Shown here piece after piece: positions 31,595 through 41,749 of a stretch of DNA of 64,000 nucleotides. The notes beneath the pieces are model-generated. The model made no database searches, was not told the DNA's origin, and saw only the letters and a program-made list of their open reading frames with translations. This DNA is from Candidatus Multivorans sp. (lineage in GTDB: Bacteria; Acidobacteriota; Thermoanaerobaculia; Multivoradales; Multivoraceae): contig OZ245033.1 in the NCBI GenBank assembly GCA_965224025.1, forward strand, positions 960,001-1,024,000, read 5' to 3'. Both the position numbers and the translations under genes were made by a program. The stretch's first letter is position 1. Every line of letters starts with the position of its first letter.

Positions 31595-32152
31595 TCACCT
31601 GGTCATCGCGGCAACGAGATCGCGCGCCCTCCCCAGTGAGCCGCCGCACTCCGTCAACCAGTCCGGTTCCTCGCCCACCTTGACCGAGAGCCAGGACGTG
31701 TCGGTCGCACTTGCGCCCGTGTGTTGACCCATATGACCGATCACGTACTGCTTCAGCACAGGTTTAGGAATCACCCAAGCATGTGCATCGAAAGGGGAGA
31801 TACCCAATGCGAAGACATAGTCGTAGTTCTGGTCACGAATTTGTTGAAACTTGTACCCGCCACCTCTCCAAAGCGTTGAGAACTTGATCTCGACTCGCCG
31901 GCCCTCAATGAGCCGGTCGGCCTCTGAGTCGGGCGACTTCACGACATCGAAGTCCTTGGCAGCGCACCATGCTGCCACCAGCCGCTCACCTATAGCACCA
32001 ACCTGTCGGGAAGGCCGGGTCTTGATCCAGCCGAACGGGCTGTCTTGCCAAGGGTCCCGTTCGACCTCTACGTACTCATCGCGGAGCAGCGCTGCGTAGA
32101 GCGCCAACTCGCGCACCTCCGGATCGGCGATCGACTCCACGGCCTTGTTCAT
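31595..32152 (-). CDS. Putative small PD-(D/E)XK restriction endonuclease
   Basis: GAIGE...SEADRLIEGRRVEIKFS...FQQIRDQNYDY; ATGA-coupled to the upstream DNA MTase. Confidence 0.6.
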   Translation of the reverse strand: MNKAVESIADPEVRELALYAALLRDEYVEVERDPWQDSPFGWIKTRPSRQVGAIGERLVAAWCAAKDFDVVKSPDSEADRLIEGRRVEIKFSTLWRGGGYKFQQIRDQNYDYVFALGISPFDAHAWVIPKPVLKQYVIGHMGQHTGASATDTSWLSVKVGEEPDWLTECGGSLGRARDLVAAMTR

Positions 32153-33150
32153 CGCAACAGGCCCAACTGTTCAGACTCACTTGCTCGAATAGCCAACCGA
32201 CGGAAACTCCCGTCGACGTAGCCCACGCCCGCCGTTCCCAAGCGATTGGCCATGACCGCGATGGCTTCGTCGTTGCTGTCGATCATCACGAAGTGCCTTC
32301 CCATCTTCTGGGCGACGGCGGCCGCCGTCCCGGATCCGGCGAAGAAGTCGAGCACCCAGTCGTTCTCCTGCGACGACGCGCTCAGTATCCTTCGCAGGAT
32401 GCCCTCCGGCTTCTGCGAGGCATAGCCCGTCTTCTCCTTTCCGTTCGTCGGCACGATGGTGTGCCACCAGACGTCTGTCGGCAGTTTCCCGCGTTCAGCC
32501 TTCGCCTTCGAGACAAGACCGGGCGCCATGTACGGGATCCGTTCGATCGCATCCTGGTCGAAGAAGTAGCGATCGGGATCCTTGGCGTACACGAGGATTG
32601 TGTCGTGTTTCGCGGGCCACTTCCGACGCGAGCGTCCGCCGTAGTCGTAGGCCCAGATGATCTCGTTCACGAAGCACTCGCGTCCGAAGATCTGGTCGAG
32701 CAGCACCTTGCAATAGTGCGCCTCCCGGTAGTCAAGATGGAGGTAGAGGGTGCCATCGGGGGTCAACAGTCGGCGCGCATGCTCCAGACGCGCTCTGATG
32801 AATGCGAGGTAGTCGTCGAAGGCGTCCTCATAGGACGTCGTGCCGAGCTCGACCGTACGGTACCGCCTCCCGCCGAACCCGACCCTGTCGCCTTCTTGCG
32901 AGCGGACAGTGGAGATCTCCTTCCGCTGCTGGACCTTGCCGGTGTTGAAAGGCGGATCTATGTAGATCAGGCGAAAGAACTCCTCGGGAAGCGCAGGGAG
33001 CACGTCAGCGTTGTCAGCGTGGACCACCCAGTCGCATCTCCCGTCAAGGCAGACGCGCTTGCACTGAGTCTCCGCGAGACGCGTGTCGGTCCCAGCCACG
33101 CCGGGATTACTGCTTCGGCTTCTTCGGGCCGGCACGGTCACTTGGTCCAC
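32149..33150 (-). CDS. N4/N6 DNA methyltransferase (beta class)
   Basis: IYIDPPFNTG precedes QKPE and VLDFFAGSGT. Confidence 0.92.
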   Translation of the reverse strand: MDQVTVPARRSRSSNPGVAGTDTRLAETQCKRVCLDGRCDWVVHADNADVLPALPEEFFRLIYIDPPFNTGKVQQRKEISTVRSQEGDRVGFGGRRYRTVELGTTSYEDAFDDYLAFIRARLEHARRLLTPDGTLYLHLDYREAHYCKVLLDQIFGRECFVNEIIWAYDYGGRSRRKWPAKHDTILVYAKDPDRYFFDQDAIERIPYMAPGLVSKAKAERGKLPTDVWWHTIVPTNGKEKTGYASQKPEGILRRILSASSQENDWVLDFFAGSGTAAAVAQKMGRHFVMIDSNDEAIAVMANRLGTAGVGYVDGSFRRLAIRASESEQLGLLR

Positions 33151-33924: not shown

Positions 33925-36900
33925 CTACCGATCGGACCGAATCGGTACACCCTGCCGGTACTGCTCGAGCCTCCGGTTCAGAAGCTCCACGAGCCGCTCC
34001 CGGTCAGCCGGCGCCGCCTGCTGCCGCCCGGAGCCGCCGAGGATCTCCAGAGCACTTTCGACCGTTCGTACCGCGGACTCGAAGTCGCCGGTCTCGGCGT
34101 AGGCCGCCGCCAGGGTCTCGAGCAGGGCCGGCTCGGCGCCGCCGGCAACCGCGTTGAGTTCCAGGGCGATCACCAGGGCAAGCTGGCCGTCCCTGCGGGC
34201 GGCGTCGCGATCGGTCGCCAGGGTCCAGGCGAGGTCGTTGCCCCGCGCGAGCAGTCGCTCGTCCTCGACGTAGGCGCGCCGGAGTTGCTCGGCGCCCTCC
34301 GCGGCTGTGGCCGGTCCGCTCTGGAGCAGCGCCAGCCCGAGTGCGTGGCGGCCGGCGGCGTGATCGGGGTCGTGTTCGAGGAGCGAGCGGTATCCCTCCA
34401 CCGCTTCTTCCAGCCGGCCCGAAGCGGCCGTCACCTGAGCGGCGCCGAAGAGGGCAGAGGCGTCGCGGGGCTCGACCGCGAGGATCGCGCGGTAGTGCGC
34501 TGCCGCGGGTTCCAGATAGCCGCTGCGGACGGCCGCGACGGCCAGGATCCGGTGCGCCTCCACATGCCGCGGGTCGCGGTCGACAACCGCCGCGAATTGC
34601 TCCATCGCTTCCGACAGCCGGTTCAACTTGCCAAGCAACTGGCCGTAGAGGTATCTGAGATCCACGTCGTCGGGGCTCTGCTCGACGGCCCGACGAAGTT
34701 CCTCTGCCGCGGCCTCCGTTTGCCCCTCGCTGTCCAGGAGTTCGGCAAGCCGCACTCGGGCGCCGACATTGCCGGGCTCCGCGGCGAGCGCCGCCTCCAC
34801 CTCGCCGCGCACCTGGTCCACGTCGCCGGCGTCGACCAGAGCGTTCTGGTAGGCCATCCGCGCGGCCGGATCGTCCGGTTCGAGGTCCAGAGCGGCGCGG
34901 GCGTAACGCACGGCGGCCCGGTTGTCTCCGCGCCGGCTCTCGATCACCGTCAGACGCTGGAGCGACTTGAACAACCGGTCCCGCGCGCCGCGCTGCTCGA
35001 ACGAGGCCGCGACGACGCCGTCCGCCCGGCTTCCGACCAGCCGCGCCTGCTCCACCTCGACGGACCGTCGCAGCAGGGACACGGATTCGGCGGGGAAGCT
35101 GTCCTCGAACCAGCGCGCGTAGCTCGCGAGCGACACCTCGGCCGGCGGATCGGTAAACCAGCGGCCGGCGACCGGCGCCGACTCGGCTCGCAGCGTGGAG
35201 TGCGGCGCGTCGAGCAGTTCAAGGTCGGCCAGAAGATCGCCGGCGGTCACGCCGCCGCGGTAGAGAACGGCGACCCGGCCCTCGCCGTCCACCAGCATGG
35301 AGAACGGCAGCGACAGCGGAAAGCGCCGGTCGAAGAGCGACCGCTTGACGATCTCGACCTTGTCGAGGGTCTGCTTCGTCGCCATCCCGTTCAGGAAGGG
35401 GAAGCCGATCTCGTCCATGAACTTCCGAGCCGACTCCTCGGTCGTGCTCGGCACGTCGCCCATTCCGTCGGTCGACAGCGCCGCGATCTCGAGGCCGGCG
35501 GCGCGTAGCGCGTCCTCTTCGGCCGTCAAGTCGCGCAGCTCCGAGCGGCAGGGAGCACACCAGCTCGCCCAGATATTGACCAGCACCGGGCGACCCCGTC
35601 CGATCGCGATCGGCGCCGGTTCCCCGGCGCCGAAGGGACGGAGCGTTAGCTGCGGCGAAGGCGGCCGCGGCGCCAGCACGACGCGGGCGCCCGTGGTCGG
35701 CGCGGGCGGCCGCTGATCGCTCGGTTCGAGGGTCCTGCCGCGACTCAGCGCCGGCTCGGGCACCACCCGGCCGCTGCCCTGGACGATCCGGTAGCGGCCG
35801 CCGGCCGCGATGCCGCCGAACGCCTCTCGCCCGGCGCCCGGCCAGTGGACGGTCACCGTACCCGTCGGTTCGCCGTCGCCGAGGCCGAAGTGCAGCCAGC
35901 GGCTGGACTGAGAGAGAAAGCCCTCGCCGGCGCGCACCGACCGCCGCAGGATGCCGTCCGTCGTCTCGAGCTCGACCCGAGCGCCCACCGCGTCCCGGTT
36001 CGTGCCGGCGCCGTCGCCTTCGAGGTACAGCGCGACGAAGCGGCCGCCCGCGGGCAGTTCGTTGCGCATCAGCCGCAATCGGGGCGCGGTCCGGTTGCTG
36101 ATCGCCACGTCCAGGTCGCCGTCGCCCTCCAGATCGAGGAAGGCCACGCCGCGGCCGTCGTCCGGAAAGTCCAGGCCGCTCACCGCCGAGGCGTTGGCGA
36201 AGGCGCCGCCCGCCGTGCCGGGGTTCAGGAAGACGCAGTTCCGCTCGTTGCCGCTGAAGGACAGCCCCTCGTCCAGCCGCTCGTGAAGCGCGCGCAGGGA
36301 TTCGAGATACGGCGCCAGCGAACGGGCATCCGGAGCACTGGGGGCACGCGGCACGACCTGCCGCCAGAAGAAGCTTCACAGGTCGTCCGGAAGGGTCTGG
36401 GTCAGGTTGCCGTTGGCTACGACCAGATCCTCCCAGCCATCGTTGTTGATATCGGCGAACACCGACGACCACGACCACCGGCCCATCGTCACCCCGGCCT
36501 GGACGCTCCGGTCGACGAACCCGCCGCCCGTGCCCGCGAACAGGGAGTTGCCGCGGGCCATCCGCTGGACCTCCGCCAGCGGACCGGCCCGCTGCCGGTC
36601 GCGCTCGAACTTCCGCTGGTACGTGATTCGGTTGCCGGCGGCCGAGAACATGTTGCCGACGTAGATGTCCATGCGGCCATCGCGGTTGTAGTCGGCCCAA
36701 CTCACCGACATTCCGGACGAAATGTCCTCGACGCCGGCGCCGGCCGCCACGTCGACGAACGAGCCGCCTTCGTTCCGGTACAGATTGTTGCGGCCGTAGT
36801 CGTTCGCCACGTAGAGGTCCGCGTCGCCGTCGCCGTCGTAGTCTTCCCAGGACGCCGCCAGACTGAAGCGGCGGTTGTTGCGGTCGAGCCCCGCCGCGGC

Positions 36901-38199
36901 CGTCGCGTCGACGAAGCGGAAGCCGCCGTCGTTGCGCAGCAGCACGTTGCGGCCGCCGTTGTTCGCGTCGTGGTACGGCGCCGGGCTCGCCACTCCGCGC
37001 TCGTCGTAGGCGCGGCGGTAGGCGCAGACGTAGACGTCGAGGTCGCCGTCGCCGTCGTAGTCGGCCGCCGACAGCGAGTTGCTGTCGGGGATGTCGCCGG
37101 CGATGTAGCGGACGCGGGCGAAGCCGCCCTTGCCATCGTTCTCGAGCACCAGCACCGCAGGCCGGCTGGAGAGCACCAAGTCGGGATCGCCGTCGTTGTC
37201 GAGGTCGACGAACAGCCCGGCGAGGGCGCGCTCCAGGTAGTCGACCGCCGCCGCCGCCGAACGATCGTCGAACACGCCGGTCGGGTTCTGCACGTACAGA
37301 CGGTTCGGCAGTCCGCCCTGCTCGGGAAGGAAGATGTCGTCCAGACCGTCGCCGTTGACATCGGCGACGGACACGCCCTGCCATCCCGTCTTGTTGTAGC
37401 CCGCCGCCTTGGCGATCCGGTTGAGCCAGGCATCCGGTGGCTGCAGCAGTTGCTCCCGGTAACTCGAGTTGTGGCCGACGGCGGCTTCGGTGACGTCCAC
37501 GAACAGGGCCCCTCCCGCCGCGGACGTCTCCTCGTAGTCGCTCATCTCGACCGTCCGCAGGAGCGGCTCGCCGGCGCCGCCCTCGGGCAACGTCCATGTC
37601 GTCGTCCAGACCGCGTTCAACTGGCGGTCGCCCGCAGCACCGGCGACCGACGCCTCGAAGTAGGAGCGGGTCGTGAAGCTCGACCCATCGCCCTCGATCG
37701 TGAAGAGCTTGAAGTCGGCCCGCGGCGATCCGCTGCCGGTCAAGCGCCCGCCCAACACCAGCAGCGCGTCCACGAAACCCTCGACGCCCCTATAGGCGAA
37801 GGGCCCAGGCTGGCCGACACTCACGGTGAAAGTCGCACCGGCGTAGCGCTCGCTCAATTCGCCGGGGACGAAGCCCCGGGTCTCGAACGTCTCGTCAACC
37901 GCCTCATCCAAGGCATCCAGCGACACCGAGGCCACGCCGCCTTCCAGCCAGCCCGCGATGCGCTTGAGCTGCGCCTCGGCCTGTTCGCTGAGCGCTTCGC
38001 TGTCCCAGCCGTCGGCACGGGGATCGACGGCGGCGGCGAAGTTCTGCGGTCCGAAGGCGGGAGATGTCTCAACAGCCGCGGCCGCCGCGCGGCGATCCTG
38101 GGCCACCGCCGTCGGTAAGGCGCCCAGCAGGACTACCGCCGAGAGCGTAGCCGCAGCAGGCAAGACAGACGGTGGCTTCAACGAGGTTCTGAGCGCCAT
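33925..38199 (-). CDS. Secreted FG-GAP/CRTAC1 + ASPIC/UnbV + thioredoxin-like + TPR protein with in-frame TGA (probable selenocysteine)
   Basis: ORFs 36376-38286 and 33925-36354 are in the same frame, separated only by TGA (PDDL*SFFWRQVV). FG-GAP repeats DxDGDGDxD, ASPIC (NRDAVGARV..GEGFLSQS..LHFGLG), WASWCAPC and TPRs. Likely ATG 38199 with signal peptide. Confidence 0.8.
36348..36364 (-). promoter_or_regulatory. Putative bacterial SECIS hairpin
   Basis: mRNA UGA-AGCUUCUUCUG-GCGGCA-GGUCG-UGCCGC: 11-nt spacer, perfect 6-bp stem, G-first apical loop. Confidence 0.72.
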
Positions 38200-38357
38200 T
38201 CGGCACGCGGGTGCTGAGTTCGGCGAAAGCGGCGTCTTCAAGCACGGCGAAGGAAGAGCCCTCGGCAGAAGGCGGCGATCCCGCAACGGAGGTCACACGG
38301 CGCGTTGGACTCTATCGGCAGCGCACTGACACCAGAGCCGCCGGCAAGCCCTCAATT

Positions 38358-38366
38358 TGCTATCAT
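38358..38366 (+). promoter_or_regulatory. Extended -10 / FitA-type operator half-site
   Basis: TGCTATCAT 43 nt upstream of the RHH antitoxin ATG. Confidence 0.4.
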
Positions 38367-38408
38367 TTCGCCCGCAACACGTCCCTCGAGCCGAAGGGAG
38401 ACTACGAA

Positions 38409-38645
38409 ATGGGGAACTTGACTGTCCGCAACCTCGACGATCGCGTTGTGGATCAACTAAAGCAGCAAGCCCGGGAGAACCACCGCTCCCTGGAGGCCGA
38501 GGTCCGCCACCGTCTCACCGAGAGCGTCTCGAACCGGCTCCGCAGGGCAACGTTCCGCGAGCGCGCGAGGCGTCTTGCAGAGGCGACAGCCGGCACACCT
38601 CAAACGGACAGCACGATCCTGATTCGCGAAGATCGGGACCGTTGA
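38409..38645 (+). CDS. FitA-like ribbon-helix-helix antitoxin
   Basis: MGNLTVRNLDDRVVDQLKQQARENHRSLEAEVRHRL...DSTILIREDRDR. Confidence 0.88.
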   Translation: MGNLTVRNLDDRVVDQLKQQARENHRSLEAEVRHRLTESVSNRLRRATFRERARRLAEATAGTPQTDSTILIREDRDR

Positions 38646-39478
38646 GGGTCACGGTCGATGCGAGCGTCGTCATCAAGTGGTACGTGGCCGAACCACGGCG
38701 GGCTGCAGCGCGCCTTCTGCTCGAAGACGGCATCGACTGCCACGCGCCCGACTTCGTCCTGATCGAATGCGCCAACGTTCTCTGGAAGAAGAGTCGCCGG
38801 AAAGAAATCGCAGACCCGGCTCTTCTCCTCGAAGAGATCCAACGGTCCGAAGTCGTCAAGCTTCACCCTTCGGCCAGCCTGCTGCTCGATGCGGCGACAA
38901 CGGCGGATGAGATAGGCCACCCCGTGTACGACTGTCTCTACATCACATGCGCTCAGCACACCGACTCCACGCTGGTCACCGACGATCGACGGCTGACGAA
39001 CGCCGTCCAGGAGAGACTGCCGTCACTCCCGGTACTGAACCTCCAGGATCCGGAGGCGACCCAGACCATCGCAGCAGCAGCTATCCGGCTAGTCATCGAC
39101 CCGGGCAGGCTCGATGAGCTACTCGGCGCCGTTCGACGGCTTGACGCCACCAGTGAGAACATCCTCAAGACCTGGCTCCGCGAAACCGGCGGATCCAGGA
39201 GCGCCGGGCCCGAAGAACGCGCTCTACTTGAGGACTCGATCCCCGTTCAGGAACTGCTCCGTCTCATCGGTGGGTTGAGCGAAGACGAGCGCGTCGACCT
39301 ACTGGCGCTCGGCTGGCTCGGCATGAGCGGCTCGGAGACCGAATCCTGGGATCGCCTGCTCATCCGCGCGAGTGAAGCGGCCGGGAGGTTCGACGCTCGG
39401 CAGATTGCGAATCTCTGTCACTACTGGGCCAAGGGTCGGGACCGTCTCGCCAGGCTCCGCACGCACACTCCCGCGTAA
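38642..39478 (+). CDS. PIN (VapC) toxin with C-terminal DUF3775-like extension
   Basis: VDASVVIKW...E..N...HPVYDCLY...LVTDD PIN core; tail LIGGLSEDERVDLLALGWLG. Confidence 0.8.
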   Translation: MRVTVDASVVIKWYVAEPRRAAARLLLEDGIDCHAPDFVLIECANVLWKKSRRKEIADPALLLEEIQRSEVVKLHPSASLLLDAATTADEIGHPVYDCLYITCAQHTDSTLVTDDRRLTNAVQERLPSLPVLNLQDPEATQTIAAAAIRLVIDPGRLDELLGAVRRLDATSENILKTWLRETGGSRSAGPEERALLEDSIPVQELLRLIGGLSEDERVDLLALGWLGMSGSETESWDRLLIRASEAAGRFDARQIANLCHYWAKGRDRLARLRTHTPA

Positions 39479-39532: not shown

Positions 39533-41749
39533 GTGCGCCCCAGTTCAAGGATCCCCTTCGGCCTGGGGCAGACCAAGCCGCACCACTTCCTGGAGATGGG
39601 GAAGGTCGCATGGCACAACCGGGATGAGGCCGCGTACGCGTGGCGCATCCTGCGCGACGGAGTCTGCGACGGTTGCGCCCTGGGCACGTCGGGTTTGCGC
39701 GACTGGACCCTCGACGGCGTCCACCTGTGCATGGTGCGTCTCGACCTGCTGCGGCTGAACACGATGCCGGCGCTCGACCCGGCCGTTCTCGCCGACGCCA
39801 AGGCTCTGGCCGCCCGCGGCTCCACGGCGCTGCGCGGTCTCGGGCGGCTCGCGCACCCGATGCTGCGACGGGCCGGCGAACCCGGGTTCCGGCGGATCGG
39901 CTGGTCCGAGGCGACCGACATCGCGGCCTCCGCGCTCGCGGAAGTCCGGCAACGCGATCCCGCGCGCGCGGCCTTCTTCCTGACCTCGCGCGGCATTCCC
40001 AACGAGACCTACTACGTGGCGCAGAAGGCTGCCCGCTTCTTCGGCACGCCCCATGTCGATACCGCCGCCCGCCTCTGCCACGCCGCCTCCACGGTGGCCC
40101 TGCATCGCGCGCTCGGATTCGGCGCCGCGACCAACTCCTATAGCGACTGGCTCGACGCGGACCTGATCGTCTTCTTCGGCTCGAACGTGCCGAACAACCA
40201 GCCGGTGACGATCAAGTATCTCCACGTCGCGCGCCGCCGGGGAGCCGAGATCGCGGTCGTCAACCCGTATCGCGAGCCCGGACTCGAGCGCTACTGGGTG
40301 CCGTCGGTCCCTTCGAGCGCCCTGTTCGGCACCGACCTTGCCCAGCACTGGTTCGCCGTCGACACCGGCGGCGACCTCGCCTTCCTGAATGGCGCGATGA
40401 AGGCCCTGCTCGATCTGCCAGGAGGCGTCGCGCGCGCCTTCGTCGAACGCTCCACCCAGAACTTCGCCGAGGTCGAGGCGGCGCTTGAGAGCACTTCCTG
40501 GTCTGAGCTCGAGCGCTCAAGCGGCGCCTCCCGCGCCGAGATGGAGCAATTCGCCGGGCTTCTCTGCTCCAAGCCGAAGACCGTCCTGGTCTGGTCGATG
40601 GGGCTGACCCAGCACCGCCACGGCGTCGACACCGTGCTCGCGATCTGCAACCTCGGCCTGATGCGCGGCCTCCCAGGCCGTCCCGGCGCGGGCCTGGTTC
40701 CGATCCGCGGCCACTCCGGCGTCCAGGGCGGTTCCGAGGTCGGCTGCGCTCCGGTGACCGAAGCGGAAACGCTCGACCGTTGGGCCGGGGTCTGGGGTTT
40801 CGAGCCCCCGCGCGGTCCCGGACTGGCCGCGACCGGCCAGATCGAGGCGGCGGCGGCCGGAGACATCGATGCGTTCTGGATACTCGGCGGCAATTTCCTG
40901 GAGACGACGCCCGACCGCGAGCGGATAGAGACCGCGCTGCACCGGCCGAAGCTCCGGATCCACCAGGACATCGTGCTCAACAGCGCGATGCTGGTCGAAC
41001 CAAGCGACACGGTACTGCTGCTGCCGGCTACGACCCGCTACGAGATCCCCGGAGGCGTGACCGAGACGACGACGGAGAGGCGGATCGTCTACTCGCCGCC
41101 GATCGGCTACGGAGGCGCCGAGGCGCGGCGGCTCGGCGAATGCCGCCCGGAGTGGGAAGTGCTGTGCGAGACCGTCTCCAGGGTCCGGCCCGAACCGCCA
41201 GGCGCCCTCGACTTCGCCAACACGACCGCGATCCGCGACGAGATCGCACGCGCCGAACCGCGCTACGCCGGCATCGAGCACCTGAAGCGGAAGGGCGACG
41301 AGATCCAGTGGGGCGGTCCGCGGCTGTTCGAGGGTGGACGCTTCGCGACCCCTTCGGGCCGAGCCGGTTTCCACGCCGTCGAACTGCCCGCGGAGCGCGC
41401 CCTCAGGGATGGCGAGCTCTTCCTCTCGACCCGCCGCGGCCGCCAGTTCAACTCGATGGTCCATGGCCGGCGGGACGCCCTGACCGGCCTCGAACGCGCC
41501 GACCTGTTGATGAATGCCGGGGACGGCAGTGCCCGCAAGATCGGCGAGGGGGACCGCGTCGTCGTCTCCTCGCCGGTGTCACGGATCGAGTTGGTGGCGC
41601 GCTTCGGAGCGATCAAGGCGGGCAACGTCGAAGCGCACTGGCCGGAGTGCATGGAGCTGCTGCCCTGGTCACTGGATCCCGACTCAGGCGAGCCCGAATA
41701 CGGAGTTCGGGTCAAGGTCGAACGGGTGGACGCGGGCCGTGACGGCTAG
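39533..41749 (+). CDS. FdhF/YdeP family molybdopterin oxidoreductase
   Basis: GVCDGCALG, ARLCHAAS, WSMGLTQH, PIRGHSGVQG and STRRGRQFNSM. Confidence 0.92.
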   Translation: MRPSSRIPFGLGQTKPHHFLEMGKVAWHNRDEAAYAWRILRDGVCDGCALGTSGLRDWTLDGVHLCMVRLDLLRLNTMPALDPAVLADAKALAARGSTALRGLGRLAHPMLRRAGEPGFRRIGWSEATDIAASALAEVRQRDPARAAFFLTSRGIPNETYYVAQKAARFFGTPHVDTAARLCHAASTVALHRALGFGAATNSYSDWLDADLIVFFGSNVPNNQPVTIKYLHVARRRGAEIAVVNPYREPGLERYWVPSVPSSALFGTDLAQHWFAVDTGGDLAFLNGAMKALLDLPGGVARAFVERSTQNFAEVEAALESTSWSELERSSGASRAEMEQFAGLLCSKPKTVLVWSMGLTQHRHGVDTVLAICNLGLMRGLPGRPGAGLVPIRGHSGVQGGSEVGCAPVTEAETLDRWAGVWGFEPPRGPGLAATGQIEAAAAGDIDAFWILGGNFLETTPDRERIETALHRPKLRIHQDIVLNSAMLVEPSDTVLLLPATTRYEIPGGVTETTTERRIVYSPPIGYGGAEARRLGECRPEWEVLCETVSRVRPEPPGALDFANTTAIRDEIARAEPRYAGIEHLKRKGDEIQWGGPRLFEGGRFATPSGRAGFHAVELPAERALRDGELFLSTRRGRQFNSMVHGRRDALTGLERADLLMNAGDGSARKIGEGDRVVVSSPVSRIELVARFGAIKAGNVEAHWPECMELLPWSLDPDSGEPEYGVRVKVERVDAGRDG

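What the first reader, a model, noticed from the sequence alone, without database searches (positions are those of the whole stretch)
33925..38199. Probable ~1424-aa secreted selenoprotein: CRTAC1/ASPIC propeller + thioredoxin + TPR with UGA and an fdhF-like SECIS
Seen: two ORFs are one frame broken by a single TGA (36376-36378, ...PDDL*SFFWRQVV...). Exactly 11 nt downstream is a perfect hairpin GCGGCA-GGUCG-UGCCGC. A Cys follows in SFSGNERNC, and a WCAPC thioredoxin domain lies further downstream. Established: the E. coli fdhF SECIS upper stem-loop starts 11 nt after UGA and has a GCAGGUC-UGC apex bound by SelB. Inference: Sec is inserted in a loop of a Ca-binding beta-propeller that is not a classical selenoenzyme fold, giving an exported redox-active scaffold with its own Trx domain. 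Automatic annotation would split it into two genes. I cannot verify whether this family is already catalogued.
Basis: partly seen in the sequence, partly recalled or inferred. Interest (0 to 1): 0.85.

Follow-up and report, generated by a model that had tools for sequence, protein, structure and literature searches.

The report
Selenocysteine codon in exported CRTAC1-like gene
The "stop" codon that seems to cut this large exported repeat protein in two is almost certainly read as the rare amino acid selenocysteine, and it marks a widespread bacterial selenoprotein family that gene callers split and that the catalogues I could search do not list.

Summary
A single in-frame TGA (36378..36376) is followed after exactly 11 nt by the hairpin GCGGCA-GGUCG-UGCCGC.

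The genome has selA, selB, selD and tRNA-Sec. The TGA sits at the same alignment column in 24 of 24 congeners and in all 69 fetched loci. By my hand count it is in 78 of 139 homologous matches from 401 genomes of the phylum. A DNA-pattern scan found it under titles naming Planctomycetota, Acidobacteriota, Verrucomicrobiota, Latescibacterota and Eisenbacteria.

The hairpin is kept by compensatory changes. The key pair 18-28 is paired in 114 of 123 TGA genes against 6 of 20 non-TGA homologues. Stopping at the TGA would leave a six-bladed propeller.

Two points are unusual:
- Uninterrupted homologues carry E, S, D or A at this column. Cys occurs in only 8 of 124.
- 59 of 59 Sec forms with a thioredoxin domain keep its CxxC, against about a fifth of non-Sec forms.

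I infer a Sec plus in-cis TlpA-like redox relay. The chemistry is unknown.

This scan has reported the same family at least eight times on other genomes.

The parts
33925..38199 (-). Full read-through coding sequence, 1424 codons plus stop, from ATG 38199. It contains one in-frame TGA.
   Evidence: In several congeners the stop-to-stop open frame is only 1413-1416 codons, which fits this start.
38101..38199 (-). Signal-peptide-like N-terminus (M30-A62 of the TTG-started frame). It has a hydrophobic core and ends AVA before QD.
   Evidence: By inspection; no predictor was run. Relatives start with lipobox-like or membrane-anchor-like N-termini.
37423..38049 (-). N-terminal alpha+beta domain with no Pfam family.
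   Evidence: AF2 model residues 18-226, pLDDT above 90. No Pfam hit in this stretch.
36052..37389 (-). Seven-bladed FG-GAP beta-propeller with seven D-x-[DN]-x-D-G-x-x-D motifs. Blade 7 is encoded after the TGA.
   Evidence: Pfam FG-GAP_3 138 bits and FG-GAP 86 bits. Motifs read. Best solved match is murine CRTAC1 9etn, E 1e-25, TMt 0.69.
36376..36378 (-). In-frame TGA, the proposed selenocysteine codon (U637 from the TTG frame, U608 from M30).
   Evidence: Same column in 24/24 congeners, 34/34 loci and 69/69 loci.
36348..36364 (-). SECIS-like hairpin GCGGCA-GGUCG-UGCCGC, starting 11 nt after the TGA.
   Evidence: Direct comparison with E. coli fdhF.
36235..36237 (-).
   Evidence: Present here and in the genus. 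It is Cys in only 5 of 68 Sec forms. It is enriched among Cys-at-column forms: 7 of 8 against 16 of 116.
35791..35991 (-). UnbV_ASPIC domain.
   Evidence: Pfam PF07593, 54 bits against a cut-off of 23.4, residues 766-832.
35197..35703 (-). TlpA/ResA-like thioredoxin-fold domain. Its WCAPC active site (C910, C913) lies at 35548-35559.
   Evidence: Pfam AhpC-TSA 35 bits against a cut-off of 26. Foldseek matches ResA 2f9s with TMt 0.84 and TlpA 1jfu. CxxC is kept in 59 of 59 Sec forms that have the domain.
34042..34941 (-). C-terminal TPR region.
   Evidence: Pfam TPR_14, TPR_19 and others over their cut-offs, residues 1148-1330. NCBIfam partial matches cover 1116-1415.

Best explanation
This is one gene for an exported protein of about 1424 aa. 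In order, it has a signal peptide, an alpha/beta domain, a seven-bladed FG-GAP propeller, an UnbV/ASPIC domain, a TlpA/ResA-like thioredoxin domain and TPR repeats.

The single in-frame UGA is decoded as selenocysteine by the canonical bacterial route. That route uses tRNA-Sec, SelA, SelD and SelB, which binds a SECIS hairpin starting 11 nt downstream. These steps are shown at the level of sequence and comparison.

The rest is inferred. The selenol sits at the N-terminus of a helix between blades 6 and 7. I propose it is a redox-active nucleophile recycled in cis by the CxxC of the fused TlpA-like domain, probably through a selenenylsulfide. The TPR and propeller surfaces would hold the still unknown substrate or partner in the periplasm. 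In relatives that carry E, S, D or A at this column the thioredoxin site has mostly decayed, so the redox function looks like an add-on to a non-redox scaffold.
For: Sec machinery in the same genome:
- selB 308 bits.
- tRNA-Sec 74.8 bits, and ARAGORN calls SeC with anticodon tca.
- selA 434 bits and selD 257 bits.

Conservation of the TGA:
- It is kept at the same column in 24/24 congeners, 34/34 loci and 69/69 loci.
- By my hand count it is in 78 of 139 matches from 60 of the 104 genomes with a match, out of 401 genomes of the phylum.
- All 81 pattern matches in 80 loci of five phylum labels are homologues.

The hairpin:
- The 6-bp register is fully paired in 38 of 64 distinct TGA genes against 1 of 20 non-TGA homologues.
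- Pair 18-28 is CG 40, GU 34, AU 20, GC 12 and UA 8, so 114 of 123 are paired, against 6 of 20 controls.
- The covariation score is 0.151 against 0.082 +/- 0.011 for shuffles, reached by 0 of 500.
- G22 is invariant and U23 at least 90% conserved in the loop, in sequences found by protein homology.
- Synonymous sites are frozen over the hairpin within the genus.
- Spacing and apex match E. coli fdhF.

One protein rather than two:
- Blade 7 of the propeller lies after the TGA.
- The AF2 model of residues 63-1030 has pLDDT 92.2 and pTM 0.92, with U at the start of helix 575-585.
- 124 homologues are uninterrupted.

The redox relay:
- CxxC is intact in 59/59 Sec forms with the domain and in 67 of 69 in the wider set.
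- In one alignment the split is 58 CxxC to 1 without for Sec forms, against 24 to 101 for non-Sec, non-Cys forms.
- In many Sec forms the two CxxC cysteines are the only Cys in the protein.
- Two forms without a thioredoxin domain have a Cys two residues after Sec, U-T-C.
Against: - No selenium incorporation, protein or activity has been shown.
- Cys, the usual counterpart of Sec, is rare at this column (8 of 124). E, S, D and A dominate.
- The Sec-CxxC association does not survive correction for relatedness. There are only 7 independent contrasts. CxxC goes the same way in 2.6, the other way in 0.1 and is unchanged in 4.3, with median p 0.25.
- There are exceptions. One Sec form has CPVS and one has no Cys at the site.
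- Six Sec genes of a second subfamily have no thioredoxin domain, and two of them (L067, L122) have no Cys at all. A cis relay therefore cannot be general.
- I could not measure the Sec-CxxC distance in the model, because coordinates are not exposed.
- Part of the 5' arm is dictated by the conserved W-R-Q peptide, so some pairing arises without selection. Controls average 3.35 of 6 pairs.
- No Rfam family matches the hairpin.
Confidence: 0.85

Rival explanations
1. The UGA is read through without selenocysteine, for example by near-cognate Trp or Cys insertion. Alternatively it mainly acts as a leaky or selenium-responsive stop that sets the ratio of a short propeller-only product to the full-length protein. 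In either case the hairpin would act as a read-through stimulator rather than a SelB site.
For: The column tolerates many residues in homologues (E, S, D, A, N, H and others), so chemistry specific to Sec is not obviously required. No experimental selenium data exist. No Rfam SECIS model matches.
Against: The hairpin has the fdhF spacing and the G-U loop letters. All four Sec genes are present. The 4 TGA-form genomes in which selA was not found all have a tRNA-Sec over the cut-off. A product stopped at the UGA would lack propeller blade 7.
Confidence: 0.07
2. These are two genuine adjacent genes. One encodes a secreted six-blade FG-GAP protein ending at TGA. The other encodes a separately initiated UnbV-thioredoxin-TPR protein, which is how gene callers annotate the locus.
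For: Databases hold the halves as separate proteins: 21 N-halves end exactly at the column and 60 C-halves start just after it. NCBI names some C-halves 'tetratricopeptide repeat protein'. A GTG lies 22 nt downstream, at 36354.
Against: Frame and column are kept with no spacer, no shift and no second stop in 69/69 loci. 124 relatives are uninterrupted. The split would cut a propeller and a confidently modelled compact fold. The C-half would lack a signal peptide. The candidate GTG lies inside the hairpin.
Confidence: 0.05
3. The TGA is a recent nonsense mutation (a pseudogene) or a sequencing or assembly error.
For: None beyond the bare presence of a stop.
Against: The same codon is in 24/24 congeners and in distant phyla. 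Both halves are under purifying selection, with 88-95% amino-acid identity across the genus. In DNA run X1, the one contig that bridges the site, a variant with 27 differences, shows none at 36376-36378 among the 18 differences listed; nine are not shown.
Confidence: 0.01

Closest known systems
E. coli fdhF selenocysteine codon with its SECIS (SelB-dependent UGA recoding)
   Same: Both have an in-frame UGA and a hairpin whose upper stem starts 11 nt after it. The apex is GCA-GGUC-UGC in fdhF and GCA-GGUCG-UGC here. The genome has selA, selB, selC and selD.
   Different: The host protein is unrelated to formate dehydrogenase. The stem is a plain 6 bp with no bulged U visible, and the loop has 5 nt. 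SelB binding was not tested. No FdhA over the family cut-off was found in this genome.
CRTAC1 (cartilage acidic protein 1; murine crystal structure 9etn) and the bacterial ASPIC/UnbV FG-GAP family
   Same: Both have an FG-GAP propeller followed by an UnbV_ASPIC domain. CRTAC1 is the best solved structural match, with E 1e-25 and TMt 0.69.
   Different: The sequence alignment to 9etn does not cover the segment that holds the Sec. The bacterial protein adds an N-terminal domain, a thioredoxin domain and TPRs. No selenium link to CRTAC1 turned up in my searches.
TlpA/ResA periplasmic thiol-disulfide reductases
   Same: The domain has the thioredoxin fold with WCxxC. TMt is 0.84 to ResA 2f9s and 0.67 to TlpA 1jfu. 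It is exported.
   Different: It scores far below the NCBIfam equivalog cut-offs (TlpA 50 bits against 230). It is fused in cis to its presumed client rather than acting as a free-standing reductase.
[quoted passage not shown]
   Same: Both are exported TlpA-like redox domains linked to selenium use.
   Different: In that family the Sec lies inside the thioredoxin active-site motif. Here the motif is all-Cys (WCAPC) and the Sec lies about 270 residues upstream in the propeller. The NCBIfam match is 32 bits against a cut-off of 300.
'ASPIC UnbV / FG-GAP' selenoprotein gene candidates of planctomycetes P1 and P2 (Kim et al. 2016, PMC4807772, S9 Table). The lead comes from earlier notes of this scan.
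   Same: If the earlier notes are right, this is the same family flagged by an in-frame UGA.
   Different: I could not verify it.

Membership tests
Bacterial SelB/SECIS-dependent selenoprotein genes | In-frame UGA conserved at one column among orthologues | tested here: met
   24/24 congeners, 69/69 fetched loci, and 81/81 pattern hits are homologues.
Bacterial SelB/SECIS-dependent selenoprotein genes | Stem-loop just downstream of the UGA, kept by compensatory change, with a conserved G-U in the apical loop | tested here: met
   Pair 18-28 shows five pair types and is paired in 114 of 123 against 6 of 20 controls. Covariation was reached by 0 of 500 shuffles. G22 is invariant and U23 at least 90%. 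The loop requirement itself is recalled knowledge.
Bacterial SelB/SECIS-dependent selenoprotein genes | Genome encodes selA, selB, selC and selD | tested here: met
   all over the curated cut-offs.
Bacterial SelB/SECIS-dependent selenoprotein genes | Homologues carry Cys at the Sec column | tested here: inconclusive
   Cys occurs in 8 of 124 uninterrupted homologues. The rest are E33, S25, D19, A15, N6, H5, Q4, G3, Y2, R2 and M2.
Bacterial SelB/SECIS-dependent selenoprotein genes | Selenium shown in the protein (75Se or mass spectrometry) | not testable with these tools
   No proteomic data were available. The RNA runs were uninformative.
CRTAC1 / ASPIC-UnbV FG-GAP proteins | FG-GAP repeats forming a propeller, followed by an UnbV_ASPIC domain | tested here: met
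   PF13517 138 bits, PF01839 86 bits, PF07593 54 bits. 9etn is the top structural hit.
TlpA/ResA-like thiol-disulfide oxidoreductases | Thioredoxin fold with a CxxC active site | tested here: met
   WCAPC is present. AhpC-TSA is over its cut-off. ResA and TlpA are structural matches.
TlpA/ResA-like thiol-disulfide oxidoreductases | Equivalog-level match to TlpA, ResA or DsbE | tested here: not met
   TlpA 50 against 230, ResA 32 against 170, DsbE 29 against 123 bits. It is a family-level relative only.
Catalogued prokaryotic selenoprotein families | Listed in a catalogue or carried by an NCBIfam selenoprotein model | tested here: not met
   There is no specific NCBIfam model. The 2026 review PMC13188914 has no occurrence of FG-GAP, ASPIC, CRTAC, propeller, tetratricopeptide, VCBS, repeat, PF13517, PF07593 or PF01839 in its main text. 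The same first five terms are absent from deep-Sep PMC12013277. Supplements were not seen.

The most novel reading that the evidence does not exclude
This would be a new class of exported selenoenzyme. A selenocysteine has arisen at the N-cap of a helix in a calcium-binding, normally non-redox CRTAC1-type propeller. In most relatives that position is E, S, D or A rather than Cys. The Sec is serviced in cis by a fused TlpA-like CxxC reductase. Sec-bearing subfamilies that lack any Cys would use the lone selenol differently, for example as a metal or chalcogen ligand, or with an external reductant. On the tree the Sec state changed at least nine times.
Probability: 0.4. Interest if true: 0.75.

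Novelty: new member of a known kind. Interest (0 to 1): 0.6.

Why it matters
If this reading is right, a large and widespread family of exported bacterial proteins is systematically mis-annotated as two genes. The family appears under record titles from at least five phyla, many of them marine or soil metagenome bins.

It is also missing from the selenoprotein catalogues I could search, so selenoproteome sizes for Acidobacteriota, Planctomycetota and Verrucomicrobiota are undercounted.

The site is unusual biochemically. The Sec lies outside a thioredoxin-like fold, aligns mostly with non-Cys residues, and has a dedicated reductase domain in the same chain. That combination gives a testable model of how a redox centre is grafted onto a structural scaffold.

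It may also give a functional handle on the CRTAC1/ASPIC fold, which I have seen no function assigned to in bacteria (recalled, not searched).

Tried and rejected
- **RNA evidence.** Three metatranscriptome runs held only small shares (0.04-0.06) of the stretch. The laid contigs come from relatives. None bridges the TGA with 31 or more letters on both sides. This gives no evidence on expression either way. The only parts laid from two long X22 contigs were 41-nt patches over the TGA and hairpin (36347-36387). That fits nucleotide-level conservation but proves nothing.
- **Rfam.** No SECIS family matched. The one hit was an 8-bit snoRNA match at E 8.
- **FdhA as an in-genome SECIS comparator.** No match over the family cut-off, so there was no internal positive control.
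- **Home-made genome scan for other TGA-plus-hairpin genes.** It gave 161 candidates in this GC-rich genome. That is too noisy to name other selenoproteins, so I dropped it.
- **selA co-occurrence as a discriminator.** selA is in 301 of 401 genomes of the phylum. Its presence in 56 of 60 TGA-form genomes is therefore only weakly informative. The four exceptions have tRNA-Sec.
- **Cys684 as the conserved resolving partner.** Rejected: it is Cys in 5 of 68 Sec forms.
- **Genomic neighbours as functional context.** The neighbours are a PIN/DUF3775 protein, a molybdopterin oxidoreductase, a DNA methylase, a small TPR protein and DnaE. There is no obvious operon partner.
- **Sequence alignment to CRTAC1 9etn.** It does not cover the Sec segment, so it says nothing about the equivalent residue.
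- **First structure job.** It was too large.
Full report
**1. The observation**

The feature is real, but it lies on the minus strand.
- The ORF listing gives two same-frame ORFs, 36376..38286 (-) of 636 aa and 33925..36354 (-) of 809 aa.
- Reading the frame with TGA=U gives one product with a single recoded codon at 36378..36376, in the context ...VVANGNLTQTLPDDL-U-SFFWRQVVPRAP....
- On the RNA strand the TGA is followed by 11 nt. Then comes GCGGCA, GGTCG, TGCCGC at window 36364..36348.
- The likely start is ATG 38199, which is M30 of the TTG-started frame, giving 1424 residues. Several congeners have stop-to-stop frames of only 1413-1416 codons, which fits this start.
- The N-terminus has a hydrophobic core ending AVA before QD and looks like a signal peptide. 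This is by inspection only.

**2. Anatomy**

Pfam finds the following:
- FG-GAP_3 (138 bits) and FG-GAP (86 bits).
- UnbV_ASPIC at residues 766-832 (54 bits).
- AhpC-TSA/redoxin at 897-1007 (35 bits).
- Many TPR families at 1148-1330.

The sequence holds seven D-x-[DN]-x-D-G-x-x-D motifs. The sixth (DINNDGWED) lies before the TGA and the seventh (DLEGDGDLD) after it. Termination at the TGA would therefore leave an incomplete propeller.

I modelled residues 63-1030 with AlphaFold2 on a 67-row alignment. The model is confident, with mean pLDDT 92.2 and pTM 0.92. It puts the Sec (model residue 575) at the first residue of helix 575-585, between blades 6 and 7.

Foldseek's best solved match is murine CRTAC1 (9etn, E 1e-25, TMt 0.69). 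The C-terminal domain matches ResA (2f9s, TMt 0.84) and TlpA (1jfu). NCBIfam has no model for the whole protein and no selenoprotein model that fits.

The neighbouring genes give no operon context. They are a PIN/DUF3775 protein, a molybdopterin oxidoreductase, a DNA methylase, a small TPR protein and DnaE.

**3. Is the TGA read as Sec?**

*Machinery.* The window's genome has all four components:
- selB, 308 bits.
- tRNA-Sec, 74.8 bits. ARAGORN calls it tRNA-SeC with anticodon tca.
- selA, 434 bits.
- selD, 257 bits.

*Conservation.*
- A 301-aa query across the junction found exactly one in-frame TGA in the best match of 24 of 24 same-genus genomes. More distant genomes of the order also had it, at 61%, 40% and 38% identity.
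- The TGA is at the same alignment column in 34 of 34 loci and in 69 of 69 loci.
- In a draw of 401 genomes of the phylum, 104 had a match at E <= 1e-10. Of the 139 matches listed, 78 hold exactly one TGA, in 60 genomes (my hand count).
- Leaving out the three unpublished genomes G088, G189 and G063, the counts are 77 of 136 matches and 59 of 101 genomes.
- By my count of the titles of the 80 loci listed, 30 name Planctomycetota, 26 Acidobacteriota, 19 Verrucomicrobiota, 2 Latescibacterota and 1 Eisenbacteria. Two are unnamed.
- All 81 matches in those loci are homologues of this protein by BLASTP.
- The closest labelled relatives (92.5% and 85.5% amino-acid identity) are titled Candidatus Multivorans, of Acidobacteriota, Thermoanaerobaculia.

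*The hairpin.*
- I aligned 56 distinct 42-nt sequences that were found by protein homology. On these the stem (columns 14-20 with 26-32) pairs in 81% of cells.
- The covariation score is 0.151 against 0.082 +/- 0.011 in shuffles, reached by 0 of 500. Slid registers score lower.
- The telling pair is column 18 with column 28. Column 18 is the synonymous third base of the Arg codon. Column 28 is the first base of the codon after V-V.
- Over 123 distinct TGA genes this pair is CG 40, GU 34, AU 20, GC 12 and UA 8, so 114 are paired. In 20 non-TGA homologues that keep the same SFFWRQVV peptide only 6 are paired.
- The full 6-bp register is paired in 38 of 64 TGA genes against 1 of 20 controls.
- In the homology-found set G22 is invariant and T23 at least 90% conserved.
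- Within the genus (24 distinct sequences) the nine codons after the TGA show one synonymous change in all. Four-fold codons with an invariant amino acid vary in 21 of 26 flanking cases against 0 of 4 in the hairpin. My hypergeometric estimate is about 0.005, and the sequences are not independent.
- The fdhF comparison holds on E. coli K-12 itself: TGA, 11 nt, GGTTGCA-GGTC-TGCACC.
- Rfam has no matching family.

*A second subfamily.* Sec genes of about 805-845 aa with the motif ...DDL-U-LPYILxAVAH... carry their own hairpin, GYGC-GGUC-GCRC, 16 nt after the TGA. Its synonymous sites co-vary (GGT..GCA against GGC..GCG).

*selA as a test.* selA is in 301 of 401 genomes of the phylum and in 56 of the 60 TGA-form genomes (my cross-tabulation). 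The four others (G120, G265, G350, G290) each have a tRNA-Sec over the cut-off. This test is weak because Sec use is common in the phylum.

**4. What is unusual**

*The column is mostly not Cys.* In 124 uninterrupted homologues that keep the x-S-F-F-W-R motif, the column is E 33, S 25, D 19, A 15, C 8, N 6, H 5, Q 4, G 3, Y 2, R 2 and M 2. Cys is thus a minority. These residues are typical helix N-cap residues (recalled knowledge).

*Databases split the gene.* The same search returned 21 proteins that end exactly at the column and 60 that begin just after it. The window's own 809-aa C-half is among them. Several NCBI entries name C-halves 'tetratricopeptide repeat protein'.

*The proposed partner Cys is not conserved.* The Cys in ...ERNC is Cys in only 5 of 68 Sec forms. 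It is enriched among Cys-at-column forms, at 7 of 8 against 16 of 116.

*The thioredoxin CxxC is conserved in Sec forms.*
- It is intact in 59 of 59 Sec forms that have the domain.
- The other nine are six second-subfamily genes, two U-T-C genes and one gene cut by a contig end.
- In many Sec forms the two CxxC cysteines are the only Cys residues in the protein.
- In the wider pattern set, 67 of 69 genes with at least 300 residues after the Sec have a CxxC. The exceptions are CPVS (L178) and no Cys (L207).
- In one alignment of 210 rows, Sec forms split 58 CxxC, 1 without and 9 with no domain. Non-Sec, non-Cys forms split 24, 101 and 9. Cys forms split 3 with CxxC and 5 without.

*The association is not significant after correction.* On a FastTree built without the trait columns, the Sec state changes at least 9 times and the CxxC state at least 22 times. 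There are only 7 independent contrasts. CxxC goes the same way in 2.6, the opposite way in 0.1 and is unchanged in 4.3. The median sign-test p is 0.25. The direction is consistent but significance cannot be reached.

**5. Mechanism**

Shown by sequence and comparison: this is one exported multidomain protein whose UGA has every hallmark of SelB-dependent Sec insertion.

Inferred: the selenol at a helix N-terminus is a redox nucleophile recycled by the fused TlpA-like CxxC.

Support for the inference:
- The near-perfect retention of CxxC in Sec forms.
- Its decay in non-Sec forms.
- The absence of other Cys in many Sec forms.
- The U-T-C motif in two forms without a thioredoxin domain.

Against it, or left open:
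- The second subfamily has no thioredoxin domain, and two of its genes have no Cys at all (L067, L122).
- The phylogenetically corrected test is not significant.
- I could not obtain model coordinates to measure the Sec-CxxC distance.
- The substrate is unknown.

**6. Comparison with what is known, and novelty**

The recoding mechanism is the classical bacterial one. What is new is the host family.

My literature searches found no paper linking selenocysteine to FG-GAP, ASPIC, UnbV or CRTAC1 (search listings only).

I searched the main text of three papers by term and read only the matching passages:
- A 2026 review of the prokaryotic selenoproteome (PMC13188914). It has no occurrence of FG-GAP, ASPIC, CRTAC, propeller, tetratricopeptide, VCBS, repeat, Planctomycet or the three Pfam accessions. 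[quoted passage not shown]
- The deep-Sep paper (PMC12013277). It has no occurrence of the first five of those terms.
- Kim et al. 2016 (PMC4807772). Earlier notes of this scan say its S9 Table lists 'ASPIC UnbV / FG-GAP' candidates in two planctomycetes. The main text has no such words and the supplement is closed, so that priority claim stays unverified.

This scan itself has reported the same family at least eight times on other genomes. My results agree with those notes. They also add:
- the non-TGA hairpin control;
- the synonymous-site test;
- the tree-corrected Sec/CxxC test;
- the direct fdhF comparison;
- the five-phylum pattern scan.

**7. Verdict**

The finding is a real Sec codon (confidence about 0.85-0.9) in a widespread, mis-split and apparently uncatalogued selenoprotein family. 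It is a new member of a known kind. The site is atypical and there is a plausible but untested cis redox relay.

Noticed in passing
Loci L064-L068 and L122 (genomes G040, G036, G037, G033, G026, G250): A second Sec-bearing subfamily (...DDL-U-LPYILxAVAH..., about 805-845 aa) has the TGA at the same column but no thioredoxin domain. Two of its genes (L067, L122) have no Cys at all. Its own hairpin, GYGC-GGUC-GCRC, lies 16 nt after the TGA and co-varies at synonymous sites.
   Followed up: partly
Loci L120 and L121 (genomes G132, G093): Two Sec genes without a thioredoxin domain have Cys two residues after the Sec (G-U-T-C-L-W-R). They carry a 7-bp hairpin with a compensatory T-A to C-G change.
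   Followed up: no
Own genome G000 contig C1, e.g. script positions (0-based; minus-strand hits on the reverse complement) 2283151, 2660754, 3240963, 3903409 and 4512900; outside the finding: A GC-rich palindromic repeat (...GGTTCGCG-GGTGG-CGCGG.TCGCGCCACC...) directly follows TGA codons with open frames on both sides at 15 or more places. A second repeat beginning TGAGCTTCAAGTCGTGAAATCGCC occurs at least 6 times. These may be REP-like or mobile-element ends.
   Followed up: no
window 39533-41749 (+): A molybdopterin oxidoreductase (PF00384, PF01568) with no in-frame stop lies just upstream. No formate dehydrogenase alpha subunit over the family cut-off was found anywhere in the genome. It is therefore unclear which other selenoproteins the Sec machinery serves here.
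   Followed up: partly
window 37423-38049 (-): The N-terminal domain of about 210 residues is confidently modelled, with helices followed by a long curved beta-sheet. It matches no Pfam family in this protein.
   Followed up: no
Genomes G120, G265, G350, G290: These four genomes carry the TGA form and a tRNA-Sec over the cut-off, but no selA match over the cut-off was found. One of them (G120) is 99% complete. The cause could be assembly gaps or a divergent Sec synthase.
   Followed up: partly
Loci L178 and L207: These are natural exceptions to the Sec plus CxxC rule. One Sec form has CPVS at the thioredoxin site and one has no Cys there.
   Followed up: partly
window 36347-36387, runs X22 and X23: In two metatranscriptome runs, contigs of relatives matched the stretch at 85% or more almost only over the 41-nt TGA-plus-hairpin patch (records 17, 18, 26). 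This fits nucleotide-level constraint but is not evidence of expression.
   Followed up: no
window 38357-39478 (+) and 32149-33150 (-): The flanking genes are a PIN domain protein with DUF3775 and an N6/N4 DNA methylase. Neither has an apparent link to the selenoprotein gene.
   Followed up: no
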